Made by a program: the position numbers and the translations under genes. From an uncultured Gammaproteobacteria bacterium (GTDB lineage Bacteria; Patescibacteriota; Microgenomatia; UBA8517), in contig CAZAXL010000005.1 of the NCBI GenBank assembly GCA_964489145.1, forward strand, positions 7,255 to 71,254: DNA of 64,000 bases, read 5' to 3'. Below the pieces are notes generated by a model, which had not been told where the DNA came from, made no database searches, and saw only the letters and a list, made by a program, of their open reading frames with translations. Of the stretch, positions 1 through 55,980 are shown one piece after another (position 1 is the first letter of the stretch; every line of letters begins with the position of its first letter).

Positions 1-27
1 AAGTGTTAGGCAGGTGACCATATAAAA

Positions 28-246
28 ATGGATCAAAATACTAAAAAGAAAATCAGATTGGAAGATCTTCCGGATTTGCTCACCGTTCGTGAAGTGAGCG
101 AGCTTCTCAGAGTTTCTCCTTTAACTATCAAGCGTTGGGGAAAAAGAGGAAAACTTCCCGCAATCCGCATTAACTCCAGAGGAGATAGGCGCTATAAGAA
201 AGAAGCCGTACTTTGGTTACTAGGAATGCAATCCAAGGAAGAATAA
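28..246 (+). CDS. Excisionase-family helix-turn-helix DNA-binding protein (MerR/Xis-like HTH)
   Basis: 72 aa. Motif 'LLTVREVSELLRVSPLTIKRWGKRGKLPAIRI..GDRRYKKEAV' fits the excisionase-type HTH pattern. ATG 7 nt from window position 21. Confidence 0.55.
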   Translation: MDQNTKKKIRLEDLPDLLTVREVSELLRVSPLTIKRWGKRGKLPAIRINSRGDRRYKKEAVLWLLGMQSKEE

Positions 247-351
247 ACCCTCAATAATTACTAATTATAAATTTAAAATTACGAATAAAATTAAAAATTA
301 GAATTTCTAAATTCGAATTTGATTTAAAATTTTAAATTCGAAATTCATCAA

Positions 352-2160
352 TTAGTCCAATTTAATTTGTAAATTCCAGAAATGTGAGTACAGCGAATCC
401 TTTTTCTTGAGTAGGCTCTCATGAGTTCCCACTTCTTTTATTCGGCCGTGTTCCATAACCACAATTTTATCTGCTCTCATAATAGTTGAAAGCCTATGGG
501 CAACAATTATAGTGGTTTTTCCGGCACGAGCCTTCCAGAAAGCCTCCTGAATCAGCTTTTCGGATTCGCTATCAAGCTGGCTTGTAGCCTCGTCAAAAAC
601 AACAATATCGGGGTCACTTAAGATCATTCTTGCGATTGCCAATCTCTGTTTTTGGCCTCCGGAAAGCTTAACTCCGCGCTCGCCGACTTCGGTATCGTAT
701 TTTTTGGGCAAACTTTGGACAAAGTCATCAATATTGGCTATTTTTGCGGCCTCCCTGATTTCGGACAGCTTCGAGTGGTCTTTTCCATAGCCGATGTTAT
801 ATGCAATGGTGTTATTGAAAAGTATCGGTTCTTGGGGAACAATTCCAATAAACCCTCTTAAAGTATCTTTTGTAAAATCCTTAATATTTATGCCGTCAAT
901 CATAATACTGCCGGATGATAAGTCGAAAAATCTCATCAGAAGTTTGACCAAACTGGTTTTCCCGGATCCGCTTCGTCCAACAAGGGCCACAGACTGACCC
1001 TGGTCAATTTTTAGGTTAATCCCATCGATTGCATTTTTAACCCTATTTTTGTATGCGAATTTGACATTATTAAACGTCACTTCGCCATGAATATGACCAG
1101 GTCTTACCTCGGAGGTATATTCTCCCTTGTTTCCTGCGGGATAAACATGGCCGACCTTTATCGGCTTTTCCGGATCTTTTACGTCAATTTGATAATCTAA
1201 AAGTTCAAAATACTTCTTAATATCGGCAAGATTGGTCGATATCTCCCTAAGTCCATAAATTAGATCAAAAAGTTTGGGAAAGAACATACTTACGTAGCTG
1301 ATTATTAACACAAAATCTCCAATTCCAATGCCACCTGCCTTTATCAAATTTAAGGAAAAAGCCAGTACCAGAAAAATAGAAATGTTTACAAGGGAGCCAA
1401 CGCTCATGTCGATCATTCTGTAAGTCCAAAAATGTCTCCAAAGGAACCTTTTCCAGGTTTTGAATGTGTTTTTGAGACGGTTTTGTTCCCAGCCCTCCTT
1501 GGCAAAGAGCTTCACAGTCTCATAATTTATAAGGTTGTCGGTGATAATTCCCGATATTTGGTCTTCCCATTCGTTGAATTCGTTACGTGTTTTGATGTTG
1601 TAGCCGGCCAAATATTTAGTAGCTACCAGGGTTAGCAGGAAGGAGCCTACAAATATAAGGATGAACCTGTAGTCGATTTGGATGAAAAAGTAGCCCATGA
1701 CGGTAAATCCAATGACAATTTCCCACATTCTTTGGTTGAGCCGGTCATAAAGACCCCAAAAAGCATTATCTCCGCGTTTGAAAGCACTAATTAAAGCTCC
1801 GGTGCTTTTTCCGGAATGGAAGGAAAAATCCAATTCCTGAACGTACTTAAATATCGCTCTTCTAATATCAATAGATGTATCTATAGCGACAATATCACCC
1901 AAAAGATATTTGAGGTTGGCAAATATAAGACCGGCAAACTGGGTGGCAATATAGATTAGGATCAACTTATAAAGGTAGTCAAGGTTGCCATCCTGCAGGG
2001 CATTTACAAACAGCTTGAAAAAATAGGGAGTAATGAGTTCAAACACGTAGGCAAAGGTGGTGGCAATCATTGCCAGGATAAACCACCACTTATGTTTCCA
2101 AATAAACGAATAAAATCTTCTGATAATTTTTAACATTTTTATAATTTCACAAGACGCCAC
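352..2160 (-). CDS. ABC exporter, fused permease + ATP-binding domains (MsbA/ABCB-type)
   Basis: 602 aa. N-terminal 6-TM region, Walker A 'GRSGSGKTS', ABC signature 'LSGGQKQRLAIARM', Walker B 'IVVFDEATS'. Confidence 0.85.
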   Translation of the reverse strand: MASCEIIKMLKIIRRFYSFIWKHKWWFILAMIATTFAYVFELITPYFFKLFVNALQDGNLDYLYKLILIYIATQFAGLIFANLKYLLGDIVAIDTSIDIRRAIFKYVQELDFSFHSGKSTGALISAFKRGDNAFWGLYDRLNQRMWEIVIGFTVMGYFFIQIDYRFILIFVGSFLLTLVATKYLAGYNIKTRNEFNEWEDQISGIITDNLINYETVKLFAKEGWEQNRLKNTFKTWKRFLWRHFWTYRMIDMSVGSLVNISIFLVLAFSLNLIKAGGIGIGDFVLIISYVSMFFPKLFDLIYGLREISTNLADIKKYFELLDYQIDVKDPEKPIKVGHVYPAGNKGEYTSEVRPGHIHGEVTFNNVKFAYKNRVKNAIDGINLKIDQGQSVALVGRSGSGKTSLVKLLMRFFDLSSGSIMIDGINIKDFTKDTLRGFIGIVPQEPILFNNTIAYNIGYGKDHSKLSEIREAAKIANIDDFVQSLPKKYDTEVGERGVKLSGGQKQRLAIARMILSDPDIVVFDEATSQLDSESEKLIQEAFWKARAGKTTIIVAHRLSTIMRADKIVVMEHGRIKEVGTHESLLKKKDSLYSHFWNLQIKLD

Positions 2161-2348
2161 AAAACCCTTTTCGACAAGCTCAGAGCTATAGCCTTACGGG
2201 GTTGTTTTGGCGGCGAAACCCAATTATAAGCTCAACTTAAGTTGATATTCAAGAAGTACTTTATGCATACCAAAGATCTAGCCTTGCAGGTAGAGATTTT
2301 TAAGCCAGTTTGTGCTACAATATACATACTTTCAAAAAGTTTACTTCC

Positions 2349-3233
2349 ATGCGAAAACTAATTGGTTTGCTATTTGCTATAGTCTTGGTATTGGCCGTGT
2401 CAGGCTCGTTGCCTGTAGTGGCTGTGACTTCCAGTCCAGTTCCGTCTCCCACACCAACCGCAACCCTAGAACCTACTCCCATTGCTCCTCCAGTTGATAT
2501 TACCCAAAAAAGTATGGAATCTCTGGGTCCTTTGGAAAGACTTTTGGAAAGTCAGGAGTTAGGGTCTGTTTGGCCATTTAACCCTGTTAAATATGCCATA
2601 AGAGGGGCCATTGATGCCGGAGTTCCTGCAAATACACTAGTCCTTTTGCTTCTTCTGCCGATTGTTACTTTTGTTATAGCTTTTTCGCGTAATGTTGTGG
2701 GTATCAGAGGATTTGGTATCTTCCTACCTGCGGCTCTTTCTGTCGTGTTTGTGGCCACAGGTCCGGTTGTGGGAATTGGGCTTTTTTTGGTGATTGTTGC
2801 AGTCTCAACTCTTGTTCGTATGATACTTCGCAAACTGAAAGTAAAACTCCAATATCTCCCGAGAATGTCATTTATTTTTTGGGCAGTGGTTTTTGCTGTC
2901 TTGGGGGTATTGTTCTTAGCGCCAGTCCTAAATTTTCCGTCTCTTGCCAACGTTTCAATCTTTGCCGTACTTGTCCTGATTCTTCTGGCAGAAGAGTTTA
3001 GCCGGGTTCAGCTTGGAAAAAGTGCCAAAACGGCAGCCAACCTTACTTTTGAAACATTAATTTTGTCTTTAATTTCCTATCTTTTCCTTACACTCCATCC
3101 ACTAAGGGAGTACGTGCTTCTAAGACCCGAGATTTCCTTAATCTCAGTTGCAATAGCCGACCTGGTGCTCGGAAAATACACCGGACTTAGGGTTATGGAA
3201 TTTTATCGTTTTAGAAAACTTATACGAAGTTAA
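2349..3233 (+). CDS. Polytopic (about 7 TM) membrane protein with Pro/Thr-rich extracytoplasmic N-terminus, 7TM-transglutaminase-associated-like
   Basis: Signal/TM 'MRKLIGLLFAIVLVLAV', then 'SSPVPSPTPTATLEPTPIAPP', then multiple hydrophobic helices. Immediately upstream of the ATP-grasp genes. The ORF track starts at 2310; the internal Met at 2349 is more plausible. Confidence 0.45.
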   Translation: MRKLIGLLFAIVLVLAVSGSLPVVAVTSSPVPSPTPTATLEPTPIAPPVDITQKSMESLGPLERLLESQELGSVWPFNPVKYAIRGAIDAGVPANTLVLLLLLPIVTFVIAFSRNVVGIRGFGIFLPAALSVVFVATGPVVGIGLFLVIVAVSTLVRMILRKLKVKLQYLPRMSFIFWAVVFAVLGVLFLAPVLNFPSLANVSIFAVLVLILLAEEFSRVQLGKSAKTAANLTFETLILSLISYLFLTLHPLREYVLLRPEISLISVAIADLVLGKYTGLRVMEFYRFRKLIRS

Positions 3234-3252
3234 ATATTAAAAGCTCTCACTT

Positions 3253-4545
3253 ATGAAAGTCTCATCTATTCTTGGTCTAAATGCCCGTACTCAACTTTTT
3301 GCGTACAAGTACAATACCAAACGTGGCAAAAATATTGCTGATAGCAAGATTCAGTCAGCCAGGGTGCTTAAAAAGGCAAAAGTAGCTCGTCCTAAAATTT
3401 ATAAAAAATTTATCGATCCCAGGCAAGTTATGGAATTTGACTGGAATGCCCTTCCACCCAAATTTGCCTTAAAGCCCAGCCGTGGTATGGGGGGGGAGGG
3501 AATTATAGTTGTAAAAAGAAGACTTAAAGATGGGGGATGGTTAACTACTCAAAAAGAGAGAATAAAGGTCGATGATCTCAAACTCCACACACTGGATATT
3601 TTGGAAGGAGCCTATTCGATGGGAAACGTTCCTGACGTTGCCTTTATACAGGAATATATAGGGCGTGCTAAAGTCTTCCGAAGGTGGGCATATCGCGGAA
3701 CTCCTGATATACGTATTATTATTTTTAATAAAATTCCGGTGATGGCGATGCTCAGGCTTCCCACTAAAGAATCCGGTGGACGTGCCAATTTACATCAGGG
3801 GGCAATTGGGGTTGGGGTTGATATTGCTACAGGGATTACAACAAAAGCCATTTGGCATGGAGAGGAAATTGTGTTCAAACCGGGGACAGAGAGGAAGCTT
3901 CGGGGAATAAAAATACCCGGTTGGAATTTGATTTTGGAGACAGCTATCAAAGCGCAGGAGGTATCTCATTTGGGCTACTTGGGAGTAGACATTGTAATTC
4001 ACCCCGAAAAAGGCCCAATGATATTGGAACTTAATGCCCAGCCAGGGCTTCAAATACAGCTTGCAAATGGAGAGGGTCTTAAAAAAAGACTTGAAAGGGT
4101 GGAAGACCTTGAAGTTACTGATGCTGAACATGGAATCAGGATTGCAAGGGCTCTTTTTGCGGGTAGGTTTGAAAATAGAAAAGCTTTAGAGGAGGGAATT
4201 AAAACAATCAAAAATGATGAAGTAATTAAAATAGTACTTCCCAACAAGCGAAGGGTTGAAGTTATGGCCAAGGTCGATACAGGAGCATGGAGAAGCTCAA
4301 TAGATAAAACTTTTGCAGAGAATAATGGTCTTTTGCAAAAAGATAATATTCTTTGGACAAAAGTTTTTAAAAGCGCTTTAGGATCCGAGGAAAGGGCGGT
4401 TATTAATATTAGTTTTTACTTGGCGGGAAGACGGATTAATACAATAGCATCGGTATCAAACAGAAAAGGTTTGAAAAAGATCTTTATTATTGGACGACGT
4501 GACCTTCAGGGGTTTTTAGTTAAAGTAGACGATGTTGCAAAATAA
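3253..4545 (+). CDS. ATP-grasp amidoligase (alpha-L-glutamate-ligase/RimK-related) fused to C-terminal retropepsin-like aspartyl-protease domain
   Basis: 430 aa. ATP-grasp core 'KPSRGMGGEGIIVV...YIGR...ILELNAQPG'. C-terminal 'KVDTGAWRSSID' is a D-T/S-G-A aspartyl-protease motif. Confidence 0.7.
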   Translation: MKVSSILGLNARTQLFAYKYNTKRGKNIADSKIQSARVLKKAKVARPKIYKKFIDPRQVMEFDWNALPPKFALKPSRGMGGEGIIVVKRRLKDGGWLTTQKERIKVDDLKLHTLDILEGAYSMGNVPDVAFIQEYIGRAKVFRRWAYRGTPDIRIIIFNKIPVMAMLRLPTKESGGRANLHQGAIGVGVDIATGITTKAIWHGEEIVFKPGTERKLRGIKIPGWNLILETAIKAQEVSHLGYLGVDIVIHPEKGPMILELNAQPGLQIQLANGEGLKKRLERVEDLEVTDAEHGIRIARALFAGRFENRKALEEGIKTIKNDEVIKIVLPNKRRVEVMAKVDTGAWRSSIDKTFAENNGLLQKDNILWTKVFKSALGSEERAVINISFYLAGRRINTIASVSNRKGLKKIFIIGRRDLQGFLVKVDDVAK

Positions 4546-5470
4546 AAATAGGCAAGAAATTATGAAAAAAATATTAATTTTAGTAGGAGTGATGGGACCT
4601 AAAAAAGAAGTTCTTGTTCAAGATATTGCCTCAAGAATTGGTAAAGATACAGATATTACTTTGGCGGAATTTTCGGATTTGTATTTTTCCATTTCGGACA
4701 AGAATATTTATGTCGAGATCGCAGGGACGCCAATTACCAATTTTGATTTGGTTTATTTCAGACGGGCAGGGGGAGGTTTTTCAATTGTTGCTGCTACACT
4801 TGCCACCTGTCTTAAAGCAAAAAACATCAAGTTTATAGATTCTTCGTGGGGTGAAATAGGGCCCTTAGGAAGTAAGTTTACGTCTTTGGTAAAACTCTGC
4901 GTAGAAGGGCTTCCGATAATTAAAAGTATCTATGTAAGGCAAAAACAAATAAATAAATATAACGAGAGGATTGTCAAAGAATTGGGTCTTCCACTGGTAG
5001 CAAAAGAGCTTTCAATGCAAAAGGGAAAAGGGGTATATAAGATAGAATCTATCCTGGATTTTGCAAAACTTCCGGCAAAATCTTCAAGCGATTCGGATAA
5101 TCAGTTTCTTTTTCAAGAATATAAAAATTTGGGAGACGAATACAGACTATTGGTTTTAGGACGAAAGGTTCGTGTTTGGGAGAAAAAGATTTTAACTGTC
5201 AACGGCGAATTTCGCCACAACGTTTCTTTGGGTGCCAGAGAAGAATTTTTGGATATAGAAAAAATCCCAGATGACCTTGCGAAGATTGCAGAAGATGCGG
5301 CTATTAAGTTAAATTTACAAATAGCAGGAGTTGATGTTGCGGCAGATAAAAATACCGGTAAATACTATCTGATTGAAGTTAATAGAGGGCCGGGATTTAC
5401 TTACGACACTGAAGTGTCACCCGAGATGGATGAAATTGCTAAATTTTTAAAAGAGGAAACGGAAAAATAA
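4532..5470 (+). CDS. RimK-like ATP-grasp ligase
   Basis: 312 aa. 'LPLVAKELSMQKGKGVYKI', 'YRLLVLGRKVRVWEKK', 'IAGVDVAADKNTGKYYLIEVNRGPGF' match the RimK/GSH-synthetase-like ATP-grasp fold. Overlaps the upstream gene by 14 nt. Confidence 0.7.
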   Translation: MLQNKNRQEIMKKILILVGVMGPKKEVLVQDIASRIGKDTDITLAEFSDLYFSISDKNIYVEIAGTPITNFDLVYFRRAGGGFSIVAATLATCLKAKNIKFIDSSWGEIGPLGSKFTSLVKLCVEGLPIIKSIYVRQKQINKYNERIVKELGLPLVAKELSMQKGKGVYKIESILDFAKLPAKSSSDSDNQFLFQEYKNLGDEYRLLVLGRKVRVWEKKILTVNGEFRHNVSLGAREEFLDIEKIPDDLAKIAEDAAIKLNLQIAGVDVAADKNTGKYYLIEVNRGPGFTYDTEVSPEMDEIAKFLKEETEK

Positions 5471-5477
5471 CATTTAA

Positions 5478-6428
5478 ATGAAACAAATTAAAATCGGGAT
5501 AATGTTTTCCAAAGATTTTACAGGGAATGAACCACTTAGCCATATTGTGGTTAAGCTTCCTGTTTATAAGAGGTTTCTTGAACTTTGCCAGGCGGAAGGT
5601 TGGAAAGTATATGTCTTAACCCGCAAAACTTATGTTGGCAACGGAACTTTTAAAGGCGCTTGGCATTTTGATAATGGAAAATTCTTTAAAGTTTTAGATC
5701 CAGTCAAAATCGATTTAGTATATGACAGGTCGGGTGGGGTAATGTTACCGCCGTCTGGGGATGAAAGTTTGATTTGGGTTAACAGGAGAGACTTTAAGCT
5801 TTTAGCATGGGACAAATGGGCAGCCTTCAATATCATTGGTGAATACATGCCACAAACTTTTATTATTGAGGACAGAAAGAAGCTGTCAAAAATTCTCACT
5901 CAAATTAAAAGCGATTGTGTAGTTCTTAAGCCACTTAACGGACTCAAAGGAATCGGAATTTTTATCGGACCAAAAAAAGAAGCACTGAATTTTAAATTTA
6001 ACGAAAGGTACAACCGTTATATTGCTCAGGGGTTTGTAGACACGGGAAGTGGAATCCCCGGCATTACTTTGGGGCTACATGACCTCCGAATTGTGATAGT
6101 AAATGGCAAACCGGTATGGTGTCATGTTAGAGTTCCGGCTGATGGAAGTCTTTTGGCAAACGCTGCACAGGGGGGAAATATTACAGAAATAGATTACGAT
6201 AAAATTCCGGAATCTATCAAAAAAATTGTTGGTAATATTACAACATTTTTTTCATGGAAATATGATAACCCAATTTATAGTTTGGATTTTGGGGTTGGAA
6301 AAAACGGCAAACCCTACATTTTTGAAATAAATGACCAAATGGGTTTTCCAAAATGGGAGATGGATAAAAAAGATATGTTTTTACAGGAACTTGTAGAGAA
6401 TTTTAAGACAAAGCTTCAAAGGAGCTAA
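5478..6428 (+). CDS. ATP-grasp family ligase (RimK/YheC-D-like)
   Basis: 316 aa. 'VVLKPLNGLKGIGIFI', 'GFVDTGSG', 'LRIVIVNGKPVWCHVR', 'YIFEINDQMGFP' match the ATP-grasp C-terminal half. Confidence 0.6.
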   Translation: MKQIKIGIMFSKDFTGNEPLSHIVVKLPVYKRFLELCQAEGWKVYVLTRKTYVGNGTFKGAWHFDNGKFFKVLDPVKIDLVYDRSGGVMLPPSGDESLIWVNRRDFKLLAWDKWAAFNIIGEYMPQTFIIEDRKKLSKILTQIKSDCVVLKPLNGLKGIGIFIGPKKEALNFKFNERYNRYIAQGFVDTGSGIPGITLGLHDLRIVIVNGKPVWCHVRVPADGSLLANAAQGGNITEIDYDKIPESIKKIVGNITTFFSWKYDNPIYSLDFGVGKNGKPYIFEINDQMGFPKWEMDKKDMFLQELVENFKTKLQRS

Positions 6429-6562
6429 AAAAACTCCATCATTTAAATTCCGTACAATTGGTTTTAGTTGTATATATCGAGATAATTTTTTATTCTAAAG
6501 ACAACGACAATCTTTAAGTTTTTATACTCCTAATAAAATACGAAGATACATTTCTTACTCAA

Positions 6563-6597
6563 CAAAAAATCCCGCCTTTTTGGCGGGACCTTTTGTT
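6563..6597. terminator. Bidirectional Rho-independent terminator between the ATP-grasp cluster (+) and rplL (-)
   Basis: Hairpin 'CCCGCC-TTTTT-GGCGGG' flanked by an A-run on one side and a T-run on the other. Confidence 0.6.
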
Positions 6598-6660
6598 GTA
6601 GGAACTTATAGTTCCTCAGCTTTCACTGTAGAACTATCAATAACCTCAAATTAATTAAAG

Positions 6661-7065
6661 TTATTTAAGTTCCACTTTTGCTCCTGCTGCTGTAAGTTTG
6701 TCGGAAGCTGCTTTAGCGTCTTCTGCTTTAGCGTCTTTCAAAACTTCGGCCGGAACAGTGTCAGTCATTCCTTTGGCGTCCATTAAGGTTAGGTTGGGAT
6801 TGATTTCCCTTAAAGCCTTAATAACTGCAATTTTATTTGCACCGGAGTCGGTCATGACGACTGTTTTATTAGCACTTCCGGTATCTTCTGCTGGAGCTTC
6901 TCCTGCGGCTGCTGGGGCTGCTGCTGCAACCGGAAGCGCTGCGGAAACACCAAGCTTGTCTTGCAAAGCTGTGACTAATTCGGAAAGTTCCAAAACAGAA
7001 AGTTTAGAAACTTCCTCCACAATCTTTTCAACTTTTTCTGATACTTTTTTAGATTCTTCTGCCAT
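6661..7065 (-). CDS. rplL: 50S ribosomal protein L7/L12
   Basis: 134 aa. Ala-rich hinge and a conserved C-terminal domain 'KIAVIKALREI...AEVLKDAKAEDAKAASDKL..AGAKVELK'. Confidence 0.95.
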   Translation of the reverse strand: MAEESKKVSEKVEKIVEEVSKLSVLELSELVTALQDKLGVSAALPVAAAAPAAAGEAPAEDTGSANKTVVMTDSGANKIAVIKALREINPNLTLMDAKGMTDTVPAEVLKDAKAEDAKAASDKLTAAGAKVELK

Positions 7066-7086
7066 TTAATGATTCACCTCCGATCC

Positions 7087-7623
7087 CTATTTTTTACTGG
7101 CTGTGTCTAACACATAAACCAGTTTCTGCAAATTTGCATTCAATGTACCAACCAAGCCATATTCCACACCCATTAAAGTACCAAGGAACTGACCAAGAAG
7201 TGCATCGCGTCCTGGAAGAAGCGAGATTTGAGAGAGAGATTGAGAATCCTGGAATAATCCTTCAACAATACCGATTTTAAATTTCGGAACTGATTCGCCG
7301 GCTGCGCTGACAAATTCTTTAGCAAATTTTCCTAAAACTTGAATTGGGGCAACAGGATCGTCGGTTGCAATAATAAGAGCGGTTTGACCGGAAAGAATTT
7401 CGCCGGTTAGATTTTTATTGTCAAATCCTGCCGCATCGCCGGCACGGGAGAGGAGCGTGTTTTTAACAACAACCATTTTTCCACCAACTTTAGCCAGTCT
7501 TCTTTTAAGTTCTTGTTGGGGTTTAACGGCAAGTCCTGCGTAATTGACAAGGATTACCGACTTGGCGTCTTTTAGCTCAACTTTTAAATTGTCTACAAAT
7601 ACTATCTTTTCCAATTTTTTCAT
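7087..7623 (-). CDS. rplJ: 50S ribosomal protein L10
   Basis: Start taken at the internal Met 'MKKLEKIVFVDNLK'; the ORF track extends to 7656. L10 family similarity and position upstream of rplL. Confidence 0.9.
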   Translation of the reverse strand: MKKLEKIVFVDNLKVELKDAKSVILVNYAGLAVKPQQELKRRLAKVGGKMVVVKNTLLSRAGDAAGFDNKNLTGEILSGQTALIIATDDPVAPIQVLGKFAKEFVSAAGESVPKFKIGIVEGLFQDSQSLSQISLLPGRDALLGQFLGTLMGVEYGLVGTLNANLQKLVYVLDTASKK

Positions 7624-7640
7624 ATTTTTATATTTTGTCC

Positions 7641-7665
7641 AAAAAAAATCGCGCACGAGGCGCGA
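7641..7665 (-). terminator. GC-stem hairpin + U8 (attenuator/terminator) 18 nt upstream of the rplJ start
   Basis: Minus-strand sense 'TCGCGC-CTCGT-GCGCGA' followed by TTTTTTTT. Confidence 0.45.
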
Positions 7666-7758
7666 AAATCGCTTTTGCCTCGGTATGACTTATGCCAGTT
7701 TTTTCCTGGAGCATACTTTCTTAGGACAGGGGTATTATCTAATTTTTGAAGCGCAAAG

Positions 7759-7995
7759 TCAACTGGGATTATCGATTTGACTCTTTTTTAATTTTTCAAT
7801 TCTTCTTTGGGCATCCAATTTTTCCTGTAGTCTAGTTGGGTTTAGTTTAGCCACATCAAACTCTCTCTGAATTGAGTCGGGAGTTTCCAGCACCTTGGTG
7901 GTTAAAATCGGTTTTTGGAGCAATTGATTAAAGGCTCTTTCCGTCGATTCTTCTGTCATTTGGTTATAGTTTATCAAAAAACCAAAATTCATCAA
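7759..7995 (-). CDS. Hypothetical 78-aa ORF in the rplA-rplJ spacer (possibly non-coding leader)
   Basis: ORF only, no recognisable domain. It lies where L10-leader/attenuator RNA is expected. Confidence 0.2.
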   Translation of the reverse strand: MMNFGFLINYNQMTEESTERAFNQLLQKPILTTKVLETPDSIQREFDVAKLNPTRLQEKLDAQRRIEKLKKSQIDNPS

Positions 7996-8005
7996 ATCCC
8001 AAAAG

Positions 8006-8788
8006 TTATACCTTAACTTTCACTGATGGGCCCATTGTGGCTTTGATGTATGCTTTTTCGATTTGTTTTGTACCTCCAAAAGCCTTAAGAATAGCTTCAA
8101 GATTTTCAACCAACTCTGAATCCGCCTGAATTGTTTTGCCGACTACAGTGTGTACAAGGGGGGCTTCTCTTTCTGTTTTTAACGTAACCGTTGCAGTTGA
8201 AAACGACTTAACCTTTTTGGGATCGTTTATTAAAGTTCCATTTTTGGGATTTGGCATAAGGCCTTTAGGTCCTAAAAGTTTTGCGAATGGGACAAGTTTT
8301 GGCATCATATCGGGGGTTGCTACTAAAATATCAAAATCAATTTTTCCAGCTTGCAATTTAGTAACAGTGGCATCTGATGCCACTTCGACTTTCTTAACCC
8401 GGCCCGCCTGATGGGGAAGAGTAATCTGGATGGATGTTCCCGTCTTTTTGACAACAAGGTGTAGTTCCATTGTTCCGTCAAATTTTGAATAAGAAGTTTC
8501 CTTTACGAGTTTGACTGCTTCAGAAACTTTGTACAATTTTTCATGATCAAATTTAGCTTTAGACTGCCTGTATTTTTTACCCCTTATGCGTTCAATCTTT
8601 TTTGATTTTTTAGTGGCTTCGGTTTTTTGAGCTCCTTCTTCAATAATTGGGGACTCTTCGCCGGGCGCTGCCTCAACCACTTTGACTCTTTGACCACCTT
8701 TAAGTCCGGCCAAATGAACCTTTTCTTGTTCTTTTTCTTTCTTTTTATTGGAGTCTTCTCCGACAAACGCTGTTTTCATTTTTCCCAT
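8006..8788 (-). CDS. rplA: 50S ribosomal protein L1 with about 60-aa Lys/Glu-rich N-terminal extension
   Basis: 260 aa. L1 core 'KFDGTMELHLVV...LGPKGLMPNPKNGT'. The extra N-terminus is 'GEDSNKKKEKEQEK...'. Confidence 0.9.
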   Translation of the reverse strand: MGKMKTAFVGEDSNKKKEKEQEKVHLAGLKGGQRVKVVEAAPGEESPIIEEGAQKTEATKKSKKIERIRGKKYRQSKAKFDHEKLYKVSEAVKLVKETSYSKFDGTMELHLVVKKTGTSIQITLPHQAGRVKKVEVASDATVTKLQAGKIDFDILVATPDMMPKLVPFAKLLGPKGLMPNPKNGTLINDPKKVKSFSTATVTLKTEREAPLVHTVVGKTIQADSELVENLEAILKAFGGTKQIEKAYIKATMGPSVKVKV

Positions 8789-8845
8789 ATTATTTATATA
8801 ATCCTTCGGCTACTGCCTCAGGATCTCGCTTTCCTACGAAAGCTC
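8786..8845 (-). promoter_or_regulatory. Conserved stop-hairpin-SD-AT spacer-start cassette (copy 1, rplK/rplA junction)
   Basis: Minus sense 'GAGCTTTCGTAGGAAAGCGAGATCCTGAGGCAGTAGCCGAAGGATTATATAAATAATATG'. Near-identical to the def/fmt junction. Confidence 0.5.
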
Positions 8846-9262
8846 GACTTTCACTCCCATACTTCTTGCTGTTCCTTCAACAATTCTGGCTGCCGCTTCA
8901 ACGTCGGTTGTATTTAAATCAACCATTTTTTCCTCAGCAATTTTTTTGACCTGCTCGTGAGTTATTGTTCCTACTGGTTCTCTCGGGGTTTTACCGCTTC
9001 CTTTTTCAATTCCCAAAGCCTTTTTAATCATGTCGGAAACAGGGGCTTTCTTGATTATAAAATCGAATGATCTGTCTTCGTAAATAGTGATGACCGCGGG
9101 GACAACTTGTCCTTTCATGTCTTTTGTTTTGTCGTTGTACTGTTTGACAAAATCCATGATGGCAACTCCGTGCTGCCCAAGAGCTGTTCCTACGGGAGGA
9201 GCAGGGGTAGCCTCAGCCGCCTTAAGATTGATTTTAACTACTGTTTTGATCTTTTTTGCCAT
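8834..9262 (-). CDS. rplK: 50S ribosomal protein L11
   Basis: 142 aa. 'PPVGTALGQHGV', 'KTPREPVGTIT'. Confidence 0.95.
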   Translation of the reverse strand: MAKKIKTVVKINLKAAEATPAPPVGTALGQHGVAIMDFVKQYNDKTKDMKGQVVPAVITIYEDRSFDFIIKKAPVSDMIKKALGIEKGSGKTPREPVGTITHEQVKKIAEEKMVDLNTTDVEAAARIVEGTARSMGVKVELS

Positions 9263-9399
9263 TTTAACTTAGTTGGAAAGACACAGGGAAACCGGTTATG
9301 AAGTTTCGACCTGGTGGTCTACCTCAGATTTAACCGAGGTAAGGGCATTGTATCATTGGAAAGTTGCGGAGTAAAGTAGAATTATTGTAATATATACGT

Positions 9400-9618
9400 A
9401 TGTCAGAAGACGCCAGTGAAAAAGTTGATTGGATAATACCAGTCGCTAAGGATGTACCAATAGGAAGTGTTTCTTCATCTAAGCTGTCTAAGGCGGCTGA
9501 GCAACACGGAGTAAGACTTGATATCAAAACCGGAAAAGACGGAAAAATCGTAGCAGATATTTACCAAGAGGTTGTTGAAGGTATGCCTGCTCCGAGAAAA
9601 AACCCAACAAAACCTTAA
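9400..9618 (+). CDS. Hypothetical 72-aa protein (antisense to ribosomal operon)
   Basis: ORF only. Confidence 0.25.
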   Translation: MSEDASEKVDWIIPVAKDVPIGSVSSSKLSKAAEQHGVRLDIKTGKDGKIVADIYQEVVEGMPAPRKNPTKP

Positions 9619-9911
9619 GTGTGTCGTTTTCCGCCAAGAAGTTCTCCTGTAACTCTCACACCTTCTTCCCTTTTATAAACTCTTCCTTCCGGCGGATCTC
9701 GGCTTACTGTACGATGGAATCTAGCACCTTTAATTCGGAAAGGTGTATCTTTATCCTCCAGCCCCTGAACAGTGAACAGATCATTTTTGTAGGATTTTGT
9801 CTGCGCAATGCCAACTACTTGATAATGGGTGTCTTTCCAAATAACAACGTCAAGAACTGTAGGATAATCTGGAGAATCGGATCCCTCTTTTTTATTTAAA
9901 TTTTCAGACAT
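9615..9911 (-). CDS. Hypothetical 98-aa protein between nusG and rplK
   Basis: ORF co-oriented with the operon. Its start overlaps the nusG stop. No recognisable domain. Confidence 0.4.
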   Translation of the reverse strand: MSENLNKKEGSDSPDYPTVLDVVIWKDTHYQVVGIAQTKSYKNDLFTVQGLEDKDTPFRIKGARFHRTVSRDPPEGRVYKREEGVRVTGELLGGKRHT

Positions 9912-10540
9912 TAAACTTTCTGAATTTGTAGAAAATCAAGCTCAACCGGTGTTTCGCGGCCGAAAATTGAAACCAAAACTTTGACTTTACCTTTTTCCTC
10001 ATCAATTTCATGGATTGTTCCAAGAAAATCCGAAAAAGGACCGTCGACGATTTTAATAGCCTCACCAACACTAAATTTAGTCTTAAATCTGGGAGCGGGA
10101 GAGCTAATAAATTTCTGGATGTTTGCAACTTCAGCATCGGAAAGAGGGGTGGGTTTATTTCCTGCTCCTACAAATCCTGTAATTCCGGCAGTTGTCCTGA
10201 CGGCAAGCCAAGTCGGATCATCCAAAATCATCTTTACAAGAAGATATCCCGGAAAGATTTTTTCCTTGATGGTTGCTTTTTTACCACTTCTGATAATAAC
10301 TCTGTCTTGTGTCGGAACCAACATTTCAAAAACCCTACCTTCCAGGTTCATGGTTTCAACTCTCTGGCGGAGGGTGTCCATGACACGTACCTCATGGCCC
10401 GAAGAGGTATGAACCACATACCACTTTGCTTTAGGATCGGTTGTTTGGGCAAGGATCATGTGGCCCTGGATCTTTTTATGTCCGATACCTCTTTCTGCTA
10501 CTCCTGCAACTGTTTCTTGCTGTTTTGTGTCTTCGTTCAT
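9911..10540 (-). CDS. nusG: Transcription termination/antitermination factor NusG
   Basis: NGN 'KWYVVHTSSGHE', 'IFPGYLLVKM', KOW 'FSVGEAIKIVDGPFSDFLGTIHEID'. Confidence 0.9.
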   Translation of the reverse strand: MNEDTKQQETVAGVAERGIGHKKIQGHMILAQTTDPKAKWYVVHTSSGHEVRVMDTLRQRVETMNLEGRVFEMLVPTQDRVIIRSGKKATIKEKIFPGYLLVKMILDDPTWLAVRTTAGITGFVGAGNKPTPLSDAEVANIQKFISSPAPRFKTKFSVGEAIKIVDGPFSDFLGTIHEIDEEKGKVKVLVSIFGRETPVELDFLQIQKV

Positions 10541-15364: not shown

Positions 15365-16024
15365 ATGGAACTCGAGAAAAACATTAAAACCAGGAAATTG
15401 CTTCAAAGGCTTCTTAAGCTTGAGGACAATGTTGTTGGCAAGCCTTTTCCGGGCATGAAGCGTGTCAGGCAAATTTCCAGCTATCACTGTGGCCCGGCCG
15501 TTATTGTGGAATTGTTTTCATTTTTGGGAAAAAATATTTCGCAAATTGCAATTGTTAGGTCTTTGAGAGCCAAAAACAAAATCAGACAGTTGGGTCTTAC
15601 CATTCACGACCTGGCTCGTGCCACCAATATCCTGGGTAAAAAGGAGGTTGTCTTTTGGTGGAAACACCGATCTGCAATCAATGACATCTCTTTGGCTATA
15701 AATAAATATGGCTATCCGGTTGGGGTGGAATGGCAAGGCGTCTTTTACGAAGATGAAGATGAAGACAATGGGCATTATGCGGTTATTACTAAAGTTGATA
15801 AGAAAGCCAATTATTTGAGGATTTGTGACTCCTATTCCGATTTTGCCGGAGTGGACAGAAGATTTCGAATCAAAGATTTTGAGAAAAGATGGTGGGATGT
15901 AAACGAAGTAAAAATCTCAGGAAGGACGAAAACAAGAAAAATTAAGGATATAAGAATGATGTTTGTGATTACTCCAAAGGGCGAAACCTGGCCCAAAAAA
16001 CTTCATATGGTCAAAGCTTTATAA
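15365..16024 (+). CDS. Papain-like (C39/BtrH_N-like) cysteine peptidase/acyltransferase
   Basis: 'QISSYHCGPAVIV' gives Gln-x5-Cys. A later 'NGHYAVITKVD' supplies the His/Asp. Nested between two ATP-grasp genes. Confidence 0.45.
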   Translation: MELEKNIKTRKLLQRLLKLEDNVVGKPFPGMKRVRQISSYHCGPAVIVELFSFLGKNISQIAIVRSLRAKNKIRQLGLTIHDLARATNILGKKEVVFWWKHRSAINDISLAINKYGYPVGVEWQGVFYEDEDEDNGHYAVITKVDKKANYLRICDSYSDFAGVDRRFRIKDFEKRWWDVNEVKISGRTKTRKIKDIRMMFVITPKGETWPKKLHMVKAL

Positions 16025-16053
16025 AACTGTTAGATTATTCTTTAGTATACTAA

Positions 16054-55692: not shown

Positions 55693-55980
55693 ATGAATAA
55701 ATACGAATTAACCTTAGTTTTGGACGGCAAGGCGGGAGCTGTCAAAAAAAAGAAAGTAATCGAAACTTTAGAAAAAGTTTTGGCTATTTTTAAGGGATCA
55801 ATCAAAGAGTCTAAAGATTGGGGAGTAAAAGAACTTGCCTACAAAATCGGAAAAAGTGAGACCGGGCTTTACCTATTCTTCGAAATTGAACTTGATCCCA
55901 AAGGAGCTAAGTCATTAAATGATAAACTAAGAGTAGATCCTGATTTAATTAGGTTTTTACTAATAAATAAAAATAAATAA
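55693..55980 (+). CDS. rpsF: 30S ribosomal protein S6
   Basis: 'MNKYELTLVLD', 'GLYLFFEIE'. Confidence 0.9.
   Translation: MNKYELTLVLDGKAGAVKKKKVIETLEKVLAIFKGSIKESKDWGVKELAYKIGKSETGLYLFFEIELDPKGAKSLNDKLRVDPDLIRFLLINKNK

What the first reader, a model, noticed from the sequence alone, without database searches (positions are those of the whole stretch)
2310..6428. ATP-grasp peptide-modification cluster: 7TM protein + ATP-grasp::retropepsin fusion + two further RimK-like ATP-grasps
Four co-directional, tightly spaced or overlapping genes. A Pro/Thr-rich polytopic membrane protein comes first. Then a 430-aa ATP-grasp whose C-terminus carries a retropepsin-type D-T-G-A motif. Then a RimK-like ATP-grasp, then a third ATP-grasp. 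The 7TM + RimK-related amidoligase + retropepsin-like protease association is a known but functionally unsolved system. The protease has previously been labelled a putative zinc protease. Here the ligase and protease are fused and two extra ligases are added. That suggests multi-step, possibly iterative, amino-acid ligation onto a peptide, protein C-terminus or envelope substrate. No obvious precursor peptide gene is visible. The cluster is convergent with rplL, and the RimK substrate S6 is encoded elsewhere.
Basis: partly seen in the sequence, partly recalled or inferred. Interest (0 to 1): 0.75.

Follow-up and report, generated by a model that had tools for sequence, protein, structure and literature searches.

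The report
Rlo-like ligase-protease cluster in Woesebacteria
Four adjacent genes in a Woesebacteria (candidate phyla radiation) genome encode a seven-helix membrane protein, an ATP-dependent amino-acid ligase fused to a retrovirus-type protease, and two more ligases; this is a rearranged version of the recently named but biochemically unsolved Rlo system of Pseudomonas and most likely builds, trims and hands over a short acidic peptide at the membrane.

Summary
Four co-directional genes (2349-6428, + strand) encode:
- a 7TM_transglut membrane protein (E 9.6e-27);
- a 430-aa ATPgrasp_ST/RloC-type ligase (E 1.2e-65). Its C-terminal 110 residues model as an RloA/RimB-type retropepsin fold, with invariant D342-T-G-A and the Arg/Lys residues that bind poly-Glu in RloA;
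- two RimK-like ATP-grasps.

The cluster is a variant of the RloABC system (P. aeruginosa, 2025), with four differences:
- the protease is fused behind the cytoplasmic ligase and is not secreted;
- the membrane protein has lost the inactive transglutaminase ectodomain;
- accessory ligases are added;
- the host is a CPR bacterium.

The fusion is not unique. At least 249 species-level genomes carry it, and every informatively named source is Patescibacteria. The 7TM + fusion pair is constant. The downstream cassette varies: 0-4 ligases from at least 6 orthogroups, a methyltransferase and peptidases.

Single-chain relatives (7TM-ligase, and protease-7TM-ligase) fix the topology and tie the parts together. 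rplL adjacency is lineage synteny only. S6 lies in the window but lacks an acidic tail, and no precursor peptide was found.

Best reading: membrane-coupled synthesis, trimming and hand-over of an acidic oligo-/poly-peptide. This is inferred, not shown. It is a new variant of a known, unsolved kind.

The parts
2161..2348 (.). Divergent intergenic region between the ABC exporter gene and gene A; presumed promoter region
   Evidence: No Rfam family match. Conserved at the nucleotide level only in the closest relatives. The small ORFs here are not conserved.
2349..3233 (+). Gene A: RloB-like membrane protein without a transglutaminase domain (294 aa; an upstream TTG at 2310 is possible)
   Evidence: PF14402 7TM_transglut 9.6e-27. 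NF052267 RloB matches only profile positions 312-507 of 508. Directly upstream of the fusion gene in 75 of 78 related loci.
2349..2426 (+). A residues 1-26: N-terminal signal or anchor helix
   Evidence: Hydropathy peak at residues 8-26. Helix 2-17 in the AF2 model.
2427..2627 (+). A residues 27-93: variable Pro/Thr/Ser-rich linker followed by a conserved 45-residue extracytoplasmic segment (DITQKS...GVPANT). It occupies the position of the TGase, PKD or protease ectodomain in relatives.
   Evidence: Alignment A3. Ectodomain swaps in relatives.
2628..3173 (+). A residues 94-275: seven transmembrane helices
   Evidence: AF2 helices 94-116, 125-137, 139-162, 169-189, 204-221, 226-248 and 250-274. 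Residues conserved across phyla lie mostly on the cytoplasmic face.
3174..3230 (+). A residues 276-294: invariant basic amphipathic C-terminal helix (YTGLRVMEFYRFRKLI); proposed docking element for the ligase
   Evidence: Invariant in A3. The R..E..RF motif is conserved across phyla and runs directly into the ligase in the single-chain proteins P0262, P0238 and L089.
3253..4167 (+). Gene B residues 1-305: RloC-type ATP-grasp ligase domain (no pre-ATP-grasp domain; conserved N-terminal ILGLNxR motif)
   Evidence: PF14397 1.2e-65 and TIGR02291 6.5e-79. Foldseek matches to RimK 4iwx/5zct at about 1e-7. K74, D152/R154, R168, R177/N179, D246 and E259/N261 are invariant; one search agrees where it resolves them.
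4201..4527 (+). Gene B residues 317-425: RimB/RloA-type retropepsin-like protease domain (stop codon at 4543-4545)
   Evidence: Model pLDDT 73-89. Foldseek matches 9g58_A at 3.2e-6, plus 9g59_A and 2pma_B. The profile matches 9g59 at 1.1e-6 and 9g58 at 9e-5. D342, T343, G344, A345, R381, R404, G414 and R415 are conserved in at least 95% of 79 sequences.
4276..4287 (+). Codons for the catalytic D342-T-G-A345 motif
   Evidence: Translation gives KVDTGAWRS.
4562..5470 (+). Gene C: RimK-like ATP-grasp ligase with a pre-ATP-grasp domain (orthogroup g0; alternative start at 4532)
   Evidence: PF08443 5.3e-12 and TIGR00768 8.9e-17. K148, E202-x-R204, GEFRHN, D257 and E272-x-N274 are present. g0 is present in 37 of 80 loci.
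5478..6428 (+). Gene D: glutathione-synthetase/RimK/YheCD-like ATP-grasp ligase (orthogroup g2)
   Evidence: GSH-S_ATP 5e-12, RimK 1.7e-9 and YheCD 8.7e-9. 1gsa matches at 9.1e-5. K151, D202-x-R204, R218, N227..GG, D269 and E283-x-N285 are conserved, but Leu replaces the Arg two residues before N227. g2 is present in 16 loci, always after g0.
6570..6588 (.). G+C-rich hairpin with an A-run before it and a T-run after it; likely a shared bidirectional terminator for the cluster and rplL

Best explanation
This is a membrane-coupled, ATP-dependent amino-acid ligation system of the Rlo type, rearranged in CPR bacteria.

Proposed mechanism (all steps inferred unless marked otherwise):
1. The RloC-type ligase domain of B lacks the usual acceptor-binding pre-ATP-grasp domain. 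It docks through its conserved N-terminus onto the conserved cytoplasmic face and C-terminal helix of the 7TM protein A.
2. There it makes alpha-peptide bonds repetitively. The most likely product is an acidic, glutamate-rich oligo- or polymer, as RimK makes.
3. The retropepsin-like domain fused to the ligase dimerises and cuts acidic stretches of that product. This sets chain length and/or creates new primers that stimulate synthesis. RimB does this for RimK, and the cryptic peptidase site of cyanophycin synthetase does it for cyanophycin.
4. The RimK-like ligases C and D add further residues to a carboxylate of the same molecule, as priming or capping steps. This set is swapped between species, so the product is lineage-specific.
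5. The 7TM protein passes or presents the product to the outside of the membrane.

Shown here: domain identities, catalytic-residue conservation, gene linkage, fusion-derived topology and cassette variability.
Not shown: any enzymatic activity, the identity of the product, or export.
For: **Family and fold**
- PF14397, TIGR02291 and PF14402 hits.
- The AF2 model plus Foldseek matches RimK and RloA.
- Profile-to-PDB hits to RloA2, RloA and DUF785.

**Active sites**
- D342-T-G-A and G414-R415 are conserved in at least 95% of 79 fusions; D417 is invariant in the 21-sequence alignment.
- The ATP-grasp Lys, Arg and Mg-ligand residues are invariant in B and conserved in C and D.

**Acidic substrate**
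- K340, R381 and R404 align with RloA K46, R114 and R137.
- In RloA these residues coordinate poly-Glu, and mutating R114 or R137 abolishes cleavage and complementation (PMC12239564).

**Physical coupling and topology**
- A precedes B in 75 of 78 loci.
- Single chains exist for TGase-7TM-ligase (P0262), 7TM-ligase (L089, P0239) and anchor-protease-7TM-ligase (P0238).
- The residues of the 7TM module that are conserved across phyla lie mainly on the cytoplasmic face and C-terminal helix.

**Substrate crosses the membrane**
- The protease is periplasmic in Pseudomonas (PMC12239564) and extracytoplasmic in P0238.
- It is cytoplasmic here, while the ligase is always cytoplasmic and the 7TM protein is the only membrane component.

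**A protease helps a polymerising ligase**
- RimB raises RimK ATPase activity about 4-fold and is needed for poly-Glu formation (PMC11957791).
- The RimBK hybrid is an active protease.
- Cyanophycin synthetase has a primer-making peptidase site (PMC9262961).

**Peptide chemistry in the cassette**
- At least 6 RimK-like orthogroups occur in varying combinations.
- The cassette also holds a methyltransferase, MATCAP-type and C45-type peptidase genes, and GNAT or Peptidase_C25-like neighbours.

**Genetics in Pseudomonas**
- Loss of rloB or rloC suppresses the loss of all three RloA proteases. This fits a ligase/7TM product that must be cleaved.
Against: - No activity has been shown for any RloC-type ligase, so glutamate specificity is an extrapolation from RimK and from the protease's basic channel.
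- With the protease in the cytoplasm the system needs no export to be self-consistent.
- The ATP-grasp half of the B model is of low confidence, with mean pLDDT 60 for the whole protein.
- D lacks one Arg of the R-x-N motif.
- The window sequence itself scores below the Pfam and NCBIfam cut-offs for PF05618, TIGR02291 and RloA3.
Confidence: 0.45

Rival explanations
1. Reversible post-translational tailing of a protein, as in RimK-RimB or the tubulin code. The ligases add residues to the C-terminus or a side chain of a specific cellular or membrane protein, the fused protease removes them, and the 7TM protein only localises or regulates the enzymes.
For: - RimK/RimB glutamylate and de-glutamylate S6, and the RimBK hybrid exists (PMC11957791).
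- Distant CPR relatives fuse the ligase-protease unit to a MATCAP-type carboxypeptidase, the family of the tubulin detyrosinase.
- D has YheCD and weak TTL similarity.
- The cluster sits next to rplL-rplJ in 68 of 80 Woesebacteria loci.
Against: - S6 in this genome is 95 aa and ends LINKNK, with no acidic tail. L7/L12 ends VELK.
- rplL adjacency disappears in more distant relatives that keep the 7TM + fusion core.
- The obligate 7TM partner and the extracytoplasmic protease in other lineages are not explained.
- The recurrent cassette protein c3 shows no conserved acidic C-terminus.
- The Pseudomonas study found no genome-encoded poly-acidic substrate.
Confidence: 0.2
2. Cell-envelope modification. 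The ligases build or decorate a peptide on a glycan or lipid-linked envelope precursor (peptidoglycan, teichoic-like polymer, S-layer glycan), and the 7TM protein flips or presents it.
For: - Pfam describes PF14397 as 'sugar-transfer associated'.
- One relative fuses the unit to a YdjC-type carbohydrate deacetylase (P0126).
- Glycosyltransferase and PBP genes are neighbours in some loci.
- Rlo mutants show defects in cell shape, beta-lactam sensitivity and hypo-osmotic growth.
Against: - No glycosyltransferase, Mur-type or polyprenyl-linked enzyme belongs to the conserved core.
- The neighbours listed above are not conserved.
- The protease's basic channel points to a poly-acidic peptide and not to a stem peptide.
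Confidence: 0.15
3. Signal-regulated intracellular polymer metabolism. The 7TM protein is a receptor with a swappable ectodomain that switches the cytoplasmic ligase on or off. The product (for example poly-Glu as an osmolyte or glutamate store) stays inside and is turned over by the fused protease.
For: - The ectodomain position is highly variable: TGase, PKD, protease or a Pro/Thr linker. This is typical of sensors.
- The conserved residues are on the cytoplasmic face.
- In this lineage both the protease and the ligase are cytoplasmic.
- Glutamate acts as an osmolyte, as discussed in PMC12239564.
Against: - In Woesebacteria the ectodomain is reduced to a low-complexity linker plus 45 residues, which is a poor sensor.
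- In Pseudomonas and in P0238 the protease is outside the membrane while the ligase is inside, which requires the substrate to cross.
- This reading does not explain the species-specific ligase cassettes.
Confidence: 0.1
4. RiPP-type maturation (graspetide-like). The ATP-grasps modify a ribosomally made precursor peptide, the protease removes its leader, and the 7TM protein or the ABC transporter exports it.
For: - The gene content (ATP-grasps + protease + membrane protein + adjacent ABC exporter) superficially resembles RiPP clusters.
- Foldseek also lists the graspetide ligases PsnB and MdnB.
Against: - No conserved small ORF lies in or beside the cluster.
- The TIGR04187 match is only 17.5 bits against a cut-off of 350.
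- The best family and fold matches are RimK/RloC-type alpha-ligases.
- The ABC gene is upstream in only 23 of 80 loci.
Confidence: 0.05

Closest known systems
RloABC system of Pseudomonas aeruginosa (Lormand et al. 2025, mBio, PMC12239564); the same association was first predicted computationally by Iyer et al. 2009 (not readable here)
   Same: The same three modules are present. These are a PF14402 7TM module, a PF14397/TIGR02291 ATP-grasp ligase without a pre-ATP-grasp domain, and a PF05618 retropepsin-like protease with DTGA and the Lys/Arg residues used for poly-Glu binding. The genes are adjacent and co-directional.
   Different: - The protease is fused to the C-terminus of the cytoplasmic ligase and has no signal peptide; RloA is secreted.
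- The 7TM protein lacks the inactive transglutaminase ectodomain.
- Gene order is 7TM, ligase::protease; Pseudomonas has rloA-rloB-rloC.
- One to four accessory RimK-like ligases and other enzymes are appended.
- The host is CPR/Patescibacteria, whereas RloB was reported as 96% proteobacterial.
- The window proteins score below the NCBIfam cut-offs for RloB, RloA3 and TIGR02291.
RimK-RimB and the RimBK hybrid (Little et al. 2025, JBC, PMC11957791)
   Same: A cytoplasmic ATP-grasp alpha-ligase is physically coupled to a RimB-type retropepsin, in one polypeptide in RimBK. In that system the protease trims poly-Glu and stimulates the ligase. C and D are RimK-like with a pre-ATP-grasp domain.
   Different: - The domain order is reversed: ligase then protease here, protease then ligase in RimBK.
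- The ligase is of RloC type and not RimK type (44.6 bits to TIGR00768 against 265 bits to TIGR02291).
- There is an obligate 7TM partner.
- The S6 of this genome has no acidic tail.
Cyanophycin synthetase CphA1 with its cryptic primer-generating peptidase site (Sharon et al. 2022, PMC9262961)
   Same: It is an ATP-grasp-containing polymerase for a non-ribosomal poly-amino-acid that carries its own endopeptidase activity, which cuts product into primers.
   Different: The peptidase fold and polymer chemistry are unrelated, and there is no membrane partner. This is an analogy of logic only.
Tubulin tail-editing enzymes (TTL/TTLL ATP-grasp ligases with MATCAP and other carboxypeptidases); own knowledge plus the Pfam PF08014 name
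   Same: ATP-grasp ligases add residues to acidic C-terminal tails and dedicated peptidases remove them. CPR relatives of B are fused to a MATCAP-family domain.
   Different: The window cluster has no MATCAP gene. No target protein is known. The resemblance is functional analogy.
Poly-gamma-glutamate synthesis complex PgsBCA/CapBCA with the CapD/PgdS hydrolases (own knowledge; mentioned in PMC12239564)
   Same: It is a membrane-associated machine that makes an anionic glutamate polymer, moves it out of the cell, and is paired with a dedicated hydrolase.
   Different: The ligase belongs to a different family (Mur-ligase-like PgsB), the linkage is gamma and not alpha, and no component is homologous.

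Membership tests
Rlo system (RloA/RloB/RloC) | ATP-grasp ligase of the PF14397 / TIGR02291 (RloC) type | tested here: met
   PF14397 scores 221.9 bits (cut-off 31.4). TIGR02291 gives 6.5e-79 at 265 bits, which is below its equivalog cut-off of 314. B therefore belongs to the family but is not an equivalog.
Rlo system (RloA/RloB/RloC) | Membrane partner with the PF14402 7TM module | tested here: met
   94.5 bits (cut-off 25) over residues 111-304 of the 307-aa ORF. Seven helices in the AF2 model.
Rlo system (RloA/RloB/RloC) | Inactive transglutaminase ectodomain on the 7TM protein (RloB) | tested here: not met
   No Transglut_core hit. NF052267 RloB matches only profile positions 312-507, at 66.7 bits against a cut-off of 900. 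A Pro/Thr linker plus a 45-residue segment occupies that position.
Rlo system (RloA/RloB/RloC) | Retropepsin-like protease that is secreted (has a signal peptide) | tested here: not met
   The fold and DTGA are present. However, the domain is the C-terminal part of a soluble 430-aa protein with no N-terminal hydrophobic segment. NF052264 RloA3 scores 19.9 bits against a cut-off of 210.
Rlo system (RloA/RloB/RloC) | Basic substrate channel: equivalents of RloA K46, R114 and R137 | tested here: met
   K340, R381 and R404 align with these positions through the 9g58/9g59 alignments. The offsets D+66 and D+89 in 9g58 equal the published numbering. R381 and R404 are conserved in at least 95% of the 79 fusions, and K340 in at least 80%.
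Rlo system (RloA/RloB/RloC) | Role in hypo-osmotic tolerance, biofilm formation and cell shape; rloB/rloC loss suppresses protease loss | not testable with these tools
   This needs genetics, and the organism is uncultured.
RimK / RimB (S6 glutamylation) and the RimBK hybrid | RimK-family ligase (TIGR00768 / PRK10446) | tested here: inconclusive
   Pfam RimK is above its cut-off for B, C and D (39.4, 46.2 and 38 bits against 21). TIGR00768 gives 44.6, 61.3 and 43.7 bits, all below its cut-off of 143.4, and PRK10446 gives 28 bits or less against 331.
RimK / RimB (S6 glutamylation) and the RimBK hybrid | Substrate S6 with an acidic (Glu) C-terminus | tested here: not met
   The rpsF product (55693-55980) ends ...RFLLINKNK.
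RimK / RimB (S6 glutamylation) and the RimBK hybrid | Hybrid with the RimB domain N-terminal to RimK | tested here: not met
   Here the protease domain is C-terminal (residues 317-425) to the ligase. RimBK has residues 1-163 as the protease.
Clan AA retropepsin-like peptidases (PF05618, RimB-like/DUF785) | D-T/S-G-A catalytic motif, flap hairpin and C-terminal G-R-x-D/N motif in a retropepsin fold | tested here: met
   - D342-T-G-A, hairpin 366-390 with invariant G377, and G414-R-R-D417.
- Foldseek matches 9g58, 9g59 and 2pma.
- The profile search also reaches ApRick and Ddi1.
- PF05618 scores 20.4 bits for the window sequence (cut-off 27), but the family is recorded for many close relatives and scores 37 bits in P0127.
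Clan AA retropepsin-like peptidases (PF05618, RimB-like/DUF785) | Homodimer forming one active site | not testable with these tools
   Only monomer prediction was available.
ATP-grasp superfamily | ATP-binding Lys, Gly-rich loop, D/E-x-R strand, and the Mg-binding D and E-x-N | tested here: met
   - B: K74, D152-x-R154, R177-x-N179, D246 and E259-x-N261 are invariant.
- C and D: equivalent residues are conserved.
- D has Leu in place of the Arg two residues before N227.
Graspetide / RiPP ATP-grasp maturases | Adjacent precursor peptide gene and a maturase-family HMM match | tested here: not met
   No conserved small ORF. TIGR04187 scores 17.5 bits against a cut-off of 350.
Anti-phage defence systems (PADLOC) | Any component matching a defence-system model | tested here: not met
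   No hit at E of 0.01 or below for any of the four proteins.

The most novel reading that the evidence does not exclude
The constant 7TM + ligase::protease core is a previously unrecognised kind of polymer synthase-translocase. The ligase polymerises an acidic alpha-peptide directly into or onto the 7TM module, which threads it across the membrane. This would explain why the cognate protease can sit on either side in different lineages. The swappable set of RimK-like ligases, methyltransferase and carboxypeptidases would then write a species-specific peptide 'tail code' on the cell surface of CPR episymbionts, for example for host attachment or recognition. It would also identify the long-sought product of the Rlo system of Pseudomonas and Vibrio.
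Probability: 0.2. Interest if true: 0.8.

Novelty: new variant of a known kind. Interest (0 to 1): 0.55.

Why it matters
The Rlo system affects osmotic tolerance, beta-lactam sensitivity, biofilm formation and cell shape in Pseudomonas aeruginosa, and it is strongly induced by VxrAB in Vibrio cholerae. Its chemistry is still unknown: there is no known product, acceptor or role for the 7TM protein.

The CPR variants act as natural experiments that constrain the answer.
- The protease is covalently tied to the ligase, so it almost certainly acts on the ligase's own product.
- Single-chain 7TM-ligase and protease-7TM-ligase proteins fix the topology and show that the three parts work as one machine.
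- The protease can sit inside or outside the membrane. This argues that the product spans or crosses the membrane.
- The variable ligase, methyltransferase and carboxypeptidase cassettes indicate a peptide whose composition is tuned between species.

The system was described as essentially proteobacterial. Its presence in at least 249 species-level genomes of tiny, streamlined CPR bacteria suggests an important and probably envelope-related function there. The compact two-domain enzyme is also a convenient target for in-vitro reconstitution.

Tried and rejected
- **Ribosomal link.** rplL-rplJ lie downstream in 68 of 80 Woesebacteria loci. The adjacency is lost in Parcubacteria-type relatives that keep the core. 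S6 and L12 have no acidic tails. I rejected this as lineage synteny.
- **Precursor peptide.** All ORFs of 20 aa or more in and around the cluster were listed. The three intergenic candidates and both intergenic regions are conserved only in the nearest relatives, at the nucleotide level.
- **Carrier or acceptor protein.** The recurrent acidic cassette protein c3/c10 has no conserved acidic C-terminus, so a LysW-like carrier is not supported. It is also absent from the window.
- **Riboswitch or leader RNA.** No Rfam match in 1-10000 at E of 0.1 or below.
- **Defence system.** No PADLOC hit.
- **c6 HExxH protein as a MATCAP homologue.** Only a weak pairwise match aligning the HExxH motif (E 0.012) and no Pfam hit. 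I left this as tentative.
- **Iyer et al. 2009 (PMC3268129).** The paper is not held.
- **Literature on ATP-grasp or RimK in Patescibacteria.** None of the 12 listed papers mentions Patescibacteria.
- **Promoter and terminator scans.** Counts in the region were no higher than in shuffled sequence. Only the 6570-6588 hairpin is convincing by position and sequence.

Full report
**1. What is in the sequence**

Between 2310 and 6428 on the + strand there are four consecutive ORFs.

- On public contigs that carry the identical proteins, gene callers start the first gene at the ATG at 2349 (294 aa) and, on two of the three contigs read, the third at the ATG at 4562 (302 aa). The conservation of their N-termini in relatives agrees.
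- With those starts the gaps are 19, 16 and 7 nt.
- The cluster is flanked upstream by a divergently transcribed ABC half-transporter (352-2160, - strand).
- Downstream it is flanked by the convergent rplL-rplJ-rplA-rplK-nusG genes.
- A G+C-rich hairpin at 6570-6588, with an A-run before it and a T-run after it, sits between gene D and rplL.
- The closest named relatives are Woesebacteria/Microgenomates. Locus L056 (Woesebacteria UBA8517) has 99% identical L7/L12.

**2. Identity of the four proteins**

| Gene | Best matches |
|---|---|
| A | PF14402 7TM_transglut, 9.6e-27; matches only the C-terminal 7TM part (profile positions 312-507 of 508) of the NCBIfam RloB model; no transglutaminase hit |
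| B | PF14397 ATPgrasp_ST, 1.2e-65, residues 14-284; TIGR02291, 6.5e-79; only 44.6 bits to the RimK family model |
| C | RimK-like: PF08443, 5.3e-12; TIGR00768, 8.9e-17 |
| D | GSH-S_ATP, 5e-12; RimK, 1.7e-9; YheCD, 8.7e-9; E. coli glutathione synthetase 1gsa, 9.1e-5 |

Protein A:
- Hydropathy and an AF2 model (pLDDT 70-87 in the membrane part) give an N-terminal anchor helix.
- A Pro/Thr/Ser-rich linker of variable length follows, then a conserved 45-residue segment, seven transmembrane helices and an invariant basic amphipathic C-terminal helix.

Protein B:
- It has no pre-ATP-grasp domain. It has instead a strongly conserved N-terminal ILGLNxR segment.
- Its last 110 residues give only sub-threshold HMM hits (PF05618, 5e-4; RloA3, 4.8e-4).
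- In the AF2 model this part is a confident beta-domain (pLDDT 73-89). Its Foldseek matches are P. fluorescens RloA (9g58_A, 3.2e-6), P. aeruginosa RloA2 (9g59_A) and the Legionella DUF785 protein (2pma_B). The N-terminal part matches RimK, ArgX and LysX.
- A profile of this domain from 23 relatives finds 9g59 (1.1e-6), 9g58 (9e-5) and 2pma, then the rickettsial retropepsin ApRick and Ddi1.

Catalytic residues:
- D342-T-G-A, G377, R381, R404 and G414-R415 are conserved in at least 95% of 79 fusion proteins that share as little as 59% identity. D417 is invariant in the 21 closer sequences.
- The ATP-grasp catalytic residues are invariant in B and conserved in C and D, except that D has Leu where the R-x-N arginine normally sits.

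**3. What is already known**

- The NCBIfam names led to Lormand et al. 2025 (PMC12239564). [quoted passage not shown]
- The triple protease mutant is sensitive to hypo-osmotic medium and defective in biofilm formation, shape and beta-lactam tolerance. Deleting rloB or rloC suppresses these defects.
- RloA cuts runs of 8 or more glutamates. K46, R114 and R137 line a basic channel, and R114A and R137A abolish function.
- The physiological substrate and the activities of RloB and RloC are unknown.
- The related cytoplasmic pair is RimK/RimB. RimB trims poly-Glu from S6, raises RimK ATPase activity about four-fold, and is needed for poly-alpha-glutamate formation. A natural RimB-RimK hybrid (protease at the N-terminus) is an active protease (PMC11957791).
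- In the HMMER alignments, 9g58 has its two arginines at D+66 and D+89. This matches exactly the published RloA numbering (D48, R114, R137). They align with R381 and R404 of B, and K46 aligns with K340.
- The fused domain therefore keeps the catalytic aspartate and the residues that recognise poly-glutamate.

**4. How the window differs from Rlo**

- The protease is fused behind the cytoplasmic ligase and has no signal peptide.
- The 7TM protein has no transglutaminase domain.
- Two RimK-like ligases follow the fusion gene.
- The host is a CPR bacterium, whereas RloB was reported as 96% proteobacterial.
- The domain order is the reverse of RimBK, and the ligase is of RloC type, so this is an independent fusion.

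**5. Distribution and conservation**

- The fusion has thousands of homologues. The best 120 are all 419-446 aa.
- A scan of one genome per species found 249 genomes that encode it. The 80 best share 59-95% identity over the best-matching segment. Those with informative names are Woesebacteria, Microgenomates or Patescibacteria. Many MAG titles read 'uncultured Gammaproteobacteria', which I take as a labelling artefact.
- In these loci A lies directly upstream of B in 75 of the 78 with a full-length B. At least two of the other three (L065, L079) begin within about 170 nt of the B gene.
- rplL-rplJ follow downstream in 68 of 80 loci, and the ABC gene is upstream in 23.
- The stretch between B and rplL is variable. 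It holds 0-4 ATP-grasp genes from at least six orthogroups:
  - g0 (the window's C) in 37 loci;
  - g1 in 29;
  - g2 (the window's D) in 16, always after g0;
  - g3 and g4 as a pair in 13;
  - g5 in 11;
  - a fused two-domain form in 3.
- It also holds a SAM methyltransferase (26 loci), an unknown protein c3/c10 of about 200 aa (14), an HExxH protein (4), a 790-aa ATP-grasp protein (5), and a C45/AAT-type protein with DUF3541 (2).
- The g3 and g4 groups carry the classical RimK GEFR[AS]N..GG motif.

**6. More distant relatives**

- An exhaustive search of 50%-identity representatives gave 1714 hits (409 below 1e-30). The architectures found were:

| Architecture | Size | Example |
|---|---|---|
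| Ligase + retropepsin | 430-520 aa | P0122, P0132 |
| Ligase + retropepsin + MATCAP/DUF1704 carboxypeptidase | about 790 aa, many | P0127 |
| Ligase + retropepsin + YdjC | 688 aa | P0126 |
| TGase + 7TM + ligase in one chain | 880 aa | P0262 |
| 7TM + ligase | 538-576 aa | P0239, L089 |
| Anchor + retropepsin + 7TM + ligase | 657 aa | P0238 |

- The named sources of the fusions are a Rifle-aquifer 'uncultured bacterium', Candidatus Jacksonbacteria, Candidatus Gracilibacteria and 'Patescibacteria group'.
- In two such genomes the 7TM protein carries PKD domains where RloB has its TGase domain. It still directly precedes the fusion gene. It is followed by three ATP-grasps plus a second MATCAP gene in one genome, and by a GNAT in the other. 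It is not near rplL in either.
- Elsewhere a TGase-7TM + ligase pair is followed by a Peptidase_C25-like protein.
- In the MATCAP-bearing triple fusions the DTGA motif is often altered or lost. In the two-domain fusions it is mostly kept. In the window's lineage it is invariant.

**7. Inferences**

- P0238 has one anchor helix, then the protease, then seven helices, then the ligase. An ATP-dependent ligase must be cytoplasmic, so the 7TM module is N-out/C-in and that protease is outside, as in Pseudomonas.
- The same topology applies to A: its Pro/Thr linker is outside and its basic C-terminal helix is inside.
- Residues of the 7TM module that are conserved from Proteobacteria-type to CPR-type proteins lie mostly at the cytoplasmic ends of helices and in the C-terminal R..E..RF helix. 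That helix is contiguous with the ligase in the single-chain forms.
- I therefore infer that the ligase docks on the cytoplasmic face of the 7TM protein.
- The ligase is always inside, the 7TM protein is the only membrane component, and the cognate protease is outside in some lineages and inside in others. The simplest reading is that the ligase's product is present on both sides, meaning it is passed through or presented by the 7TM module.
- The covalent ligase-protease link, the RimB/RimK precedent and the primer-making peptidase site of cyanophycin synthetase (PMC9262961) suggest that the fused protease sets chain length and/or generates primers.
- The swappable RimK-like ligases, methyltransferase and carboxypeptidases point to a peptide whose ends are edited in a lineage-specific way.
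- None of these steps has been demonstrated. I put the whole model at about 0.45.

**8. Rivals**

- A RimK-like protein-tailing system (0.2) is supported by the MATCAP fusions and the ribosomal neighbourhood. It is weakened by the short, non-acidic S6, by the loss of rplL linkage outside Woesebacteria, and by the obligate membrane partner.
- An envelope-polymer modification (0.15) fits the Rlo phenotypes, the Pfam 'sugar-transfer' label and a YdjC fusion. No glycan or lipid enzyme is part of the core.
- A sensor-regulated intracellular polymer (0.1) fits the variable ectodomain. It does not fit the extracytoplasmic proteases.
- A RiPP pathway (0.05) lacks a precursor gene and family support.

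**9. Dead ends**

- The 7TM model has no informative structural neighbour.
- afdb50 was unavailable.
- There was no Rfam match and no PADLOC match.
- The c3 cassette protein is not an obvious acidic carrier.
- The c6 HExxH protein is only weakly MATCAP-like.
- The Iyer 2009 paper could not be read.
- None of the 12 listed papers from a search on ATP-grasp or RimK systems mentions Patescibacteria.

**10. Verdict**

- It is not a new kind of system. It is a new, widespread variant of the Rlo/Rim family found in CPR bacteria.
- Its value lies in the constraints it places on an unsolved mechanism: topology, coupling of ligase and protease, a substrate that probably crosses the membrane, and combinatorial accessory ligases. 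It also offers a compact enzyme for reconstitution.
- Interest is 0.55.

Noticed in passing
window 15365-17088 (+): There is a second ligase + peptidase pair in the window. A 219-aa Peptidase_C39-like protein (1.7e-5) lies directly upstream of a 344-aa D-Ala-D-Ala-ligase-like ATP-grasp (Dala_Dala_lig_C, 3.7e-37). This could simply be Ddl with a neighbour, or another peptide-ligation module.
   Followed up: partly
window 55693-55980 (+): rpsF (S6) is only 95 aa and ends ...LINKNK. It lacks the acidic C-terminal tail that RimK extends in E. coli and Pseudomonas. It is followed by ssb and rpsR as usual.
   Followed up: yes
window 352-2160 (-): An ABC_membrane + ABC_tran half-transporter is transcribed divergently from the cluster. 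The same gene is upstream in 23 of 80 related loci, so it is not part of the constant core, but it could serve as an exporter in some lineages.
   Followed up: partly
L004, L005, L007, L008 and many other loci: Many species-representative MAGs that carry this Woesebacteria-type locus, with syntenic rplL/rplJ 60-87% identical, are titled 'uncultured Gammaproteobacteria bacterium isolate binchicken_.../SRP...'. One is titled Alphaproteobacteria and one Woesearchaeota. These look like placeholder or wrong taxonomic labels in the records.
   Followed up: no
L084 3474-5876 (P0127) and about 40 other representatives of about 790 aa: In other CPR lineages the ligase-retropepsin unit is further fused to a MATCAP/DUF1704 metallocarboxypeptidase domain, the family of the eukaryotic tubulin detyrosinase. 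In these proteins the DTGA motif is frequently changed (DTGR, DTSR) or the Asp is lost (NTGR, ATGR). This suggests the retropepsin domain becomes a binding module when another peptidase is present.
   Followed up: partly
L019, L023, L057 and other loci (c1); L059, L013 and other loci (c3): A SAM-dependent methyltransferase (26 loci) and an unknown protein of about 200 aa with no Pfam match (c3/c10, 14 loci) are embedded between the accessory ligases in many Woesebacteria clusters. Neither is present in the window.
   Followed up: partly
L088 3391-7993; L089 2253-7801: Further core variants exist outside CPR-type loci. One is TGase-7TM + ligase followed by a 677-aa Peptidase_C25-like protein. 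Another is a 7TM::ligase single chain followed by a separate transglutaminase-core protein and preceded by a 914-aa prenyltransferase/terpene-cyclase-repeat protein.
   Followed up: no
window 7759-7995 (-): A 78-aa ORF lies between rplJ and rplA, in the position of the L10 leader. It is called as a gene (66-77 aa, no Pfam hit) on the identical public contigs. It may be spurious or a small lineage-specific protein.
   Followed up: no
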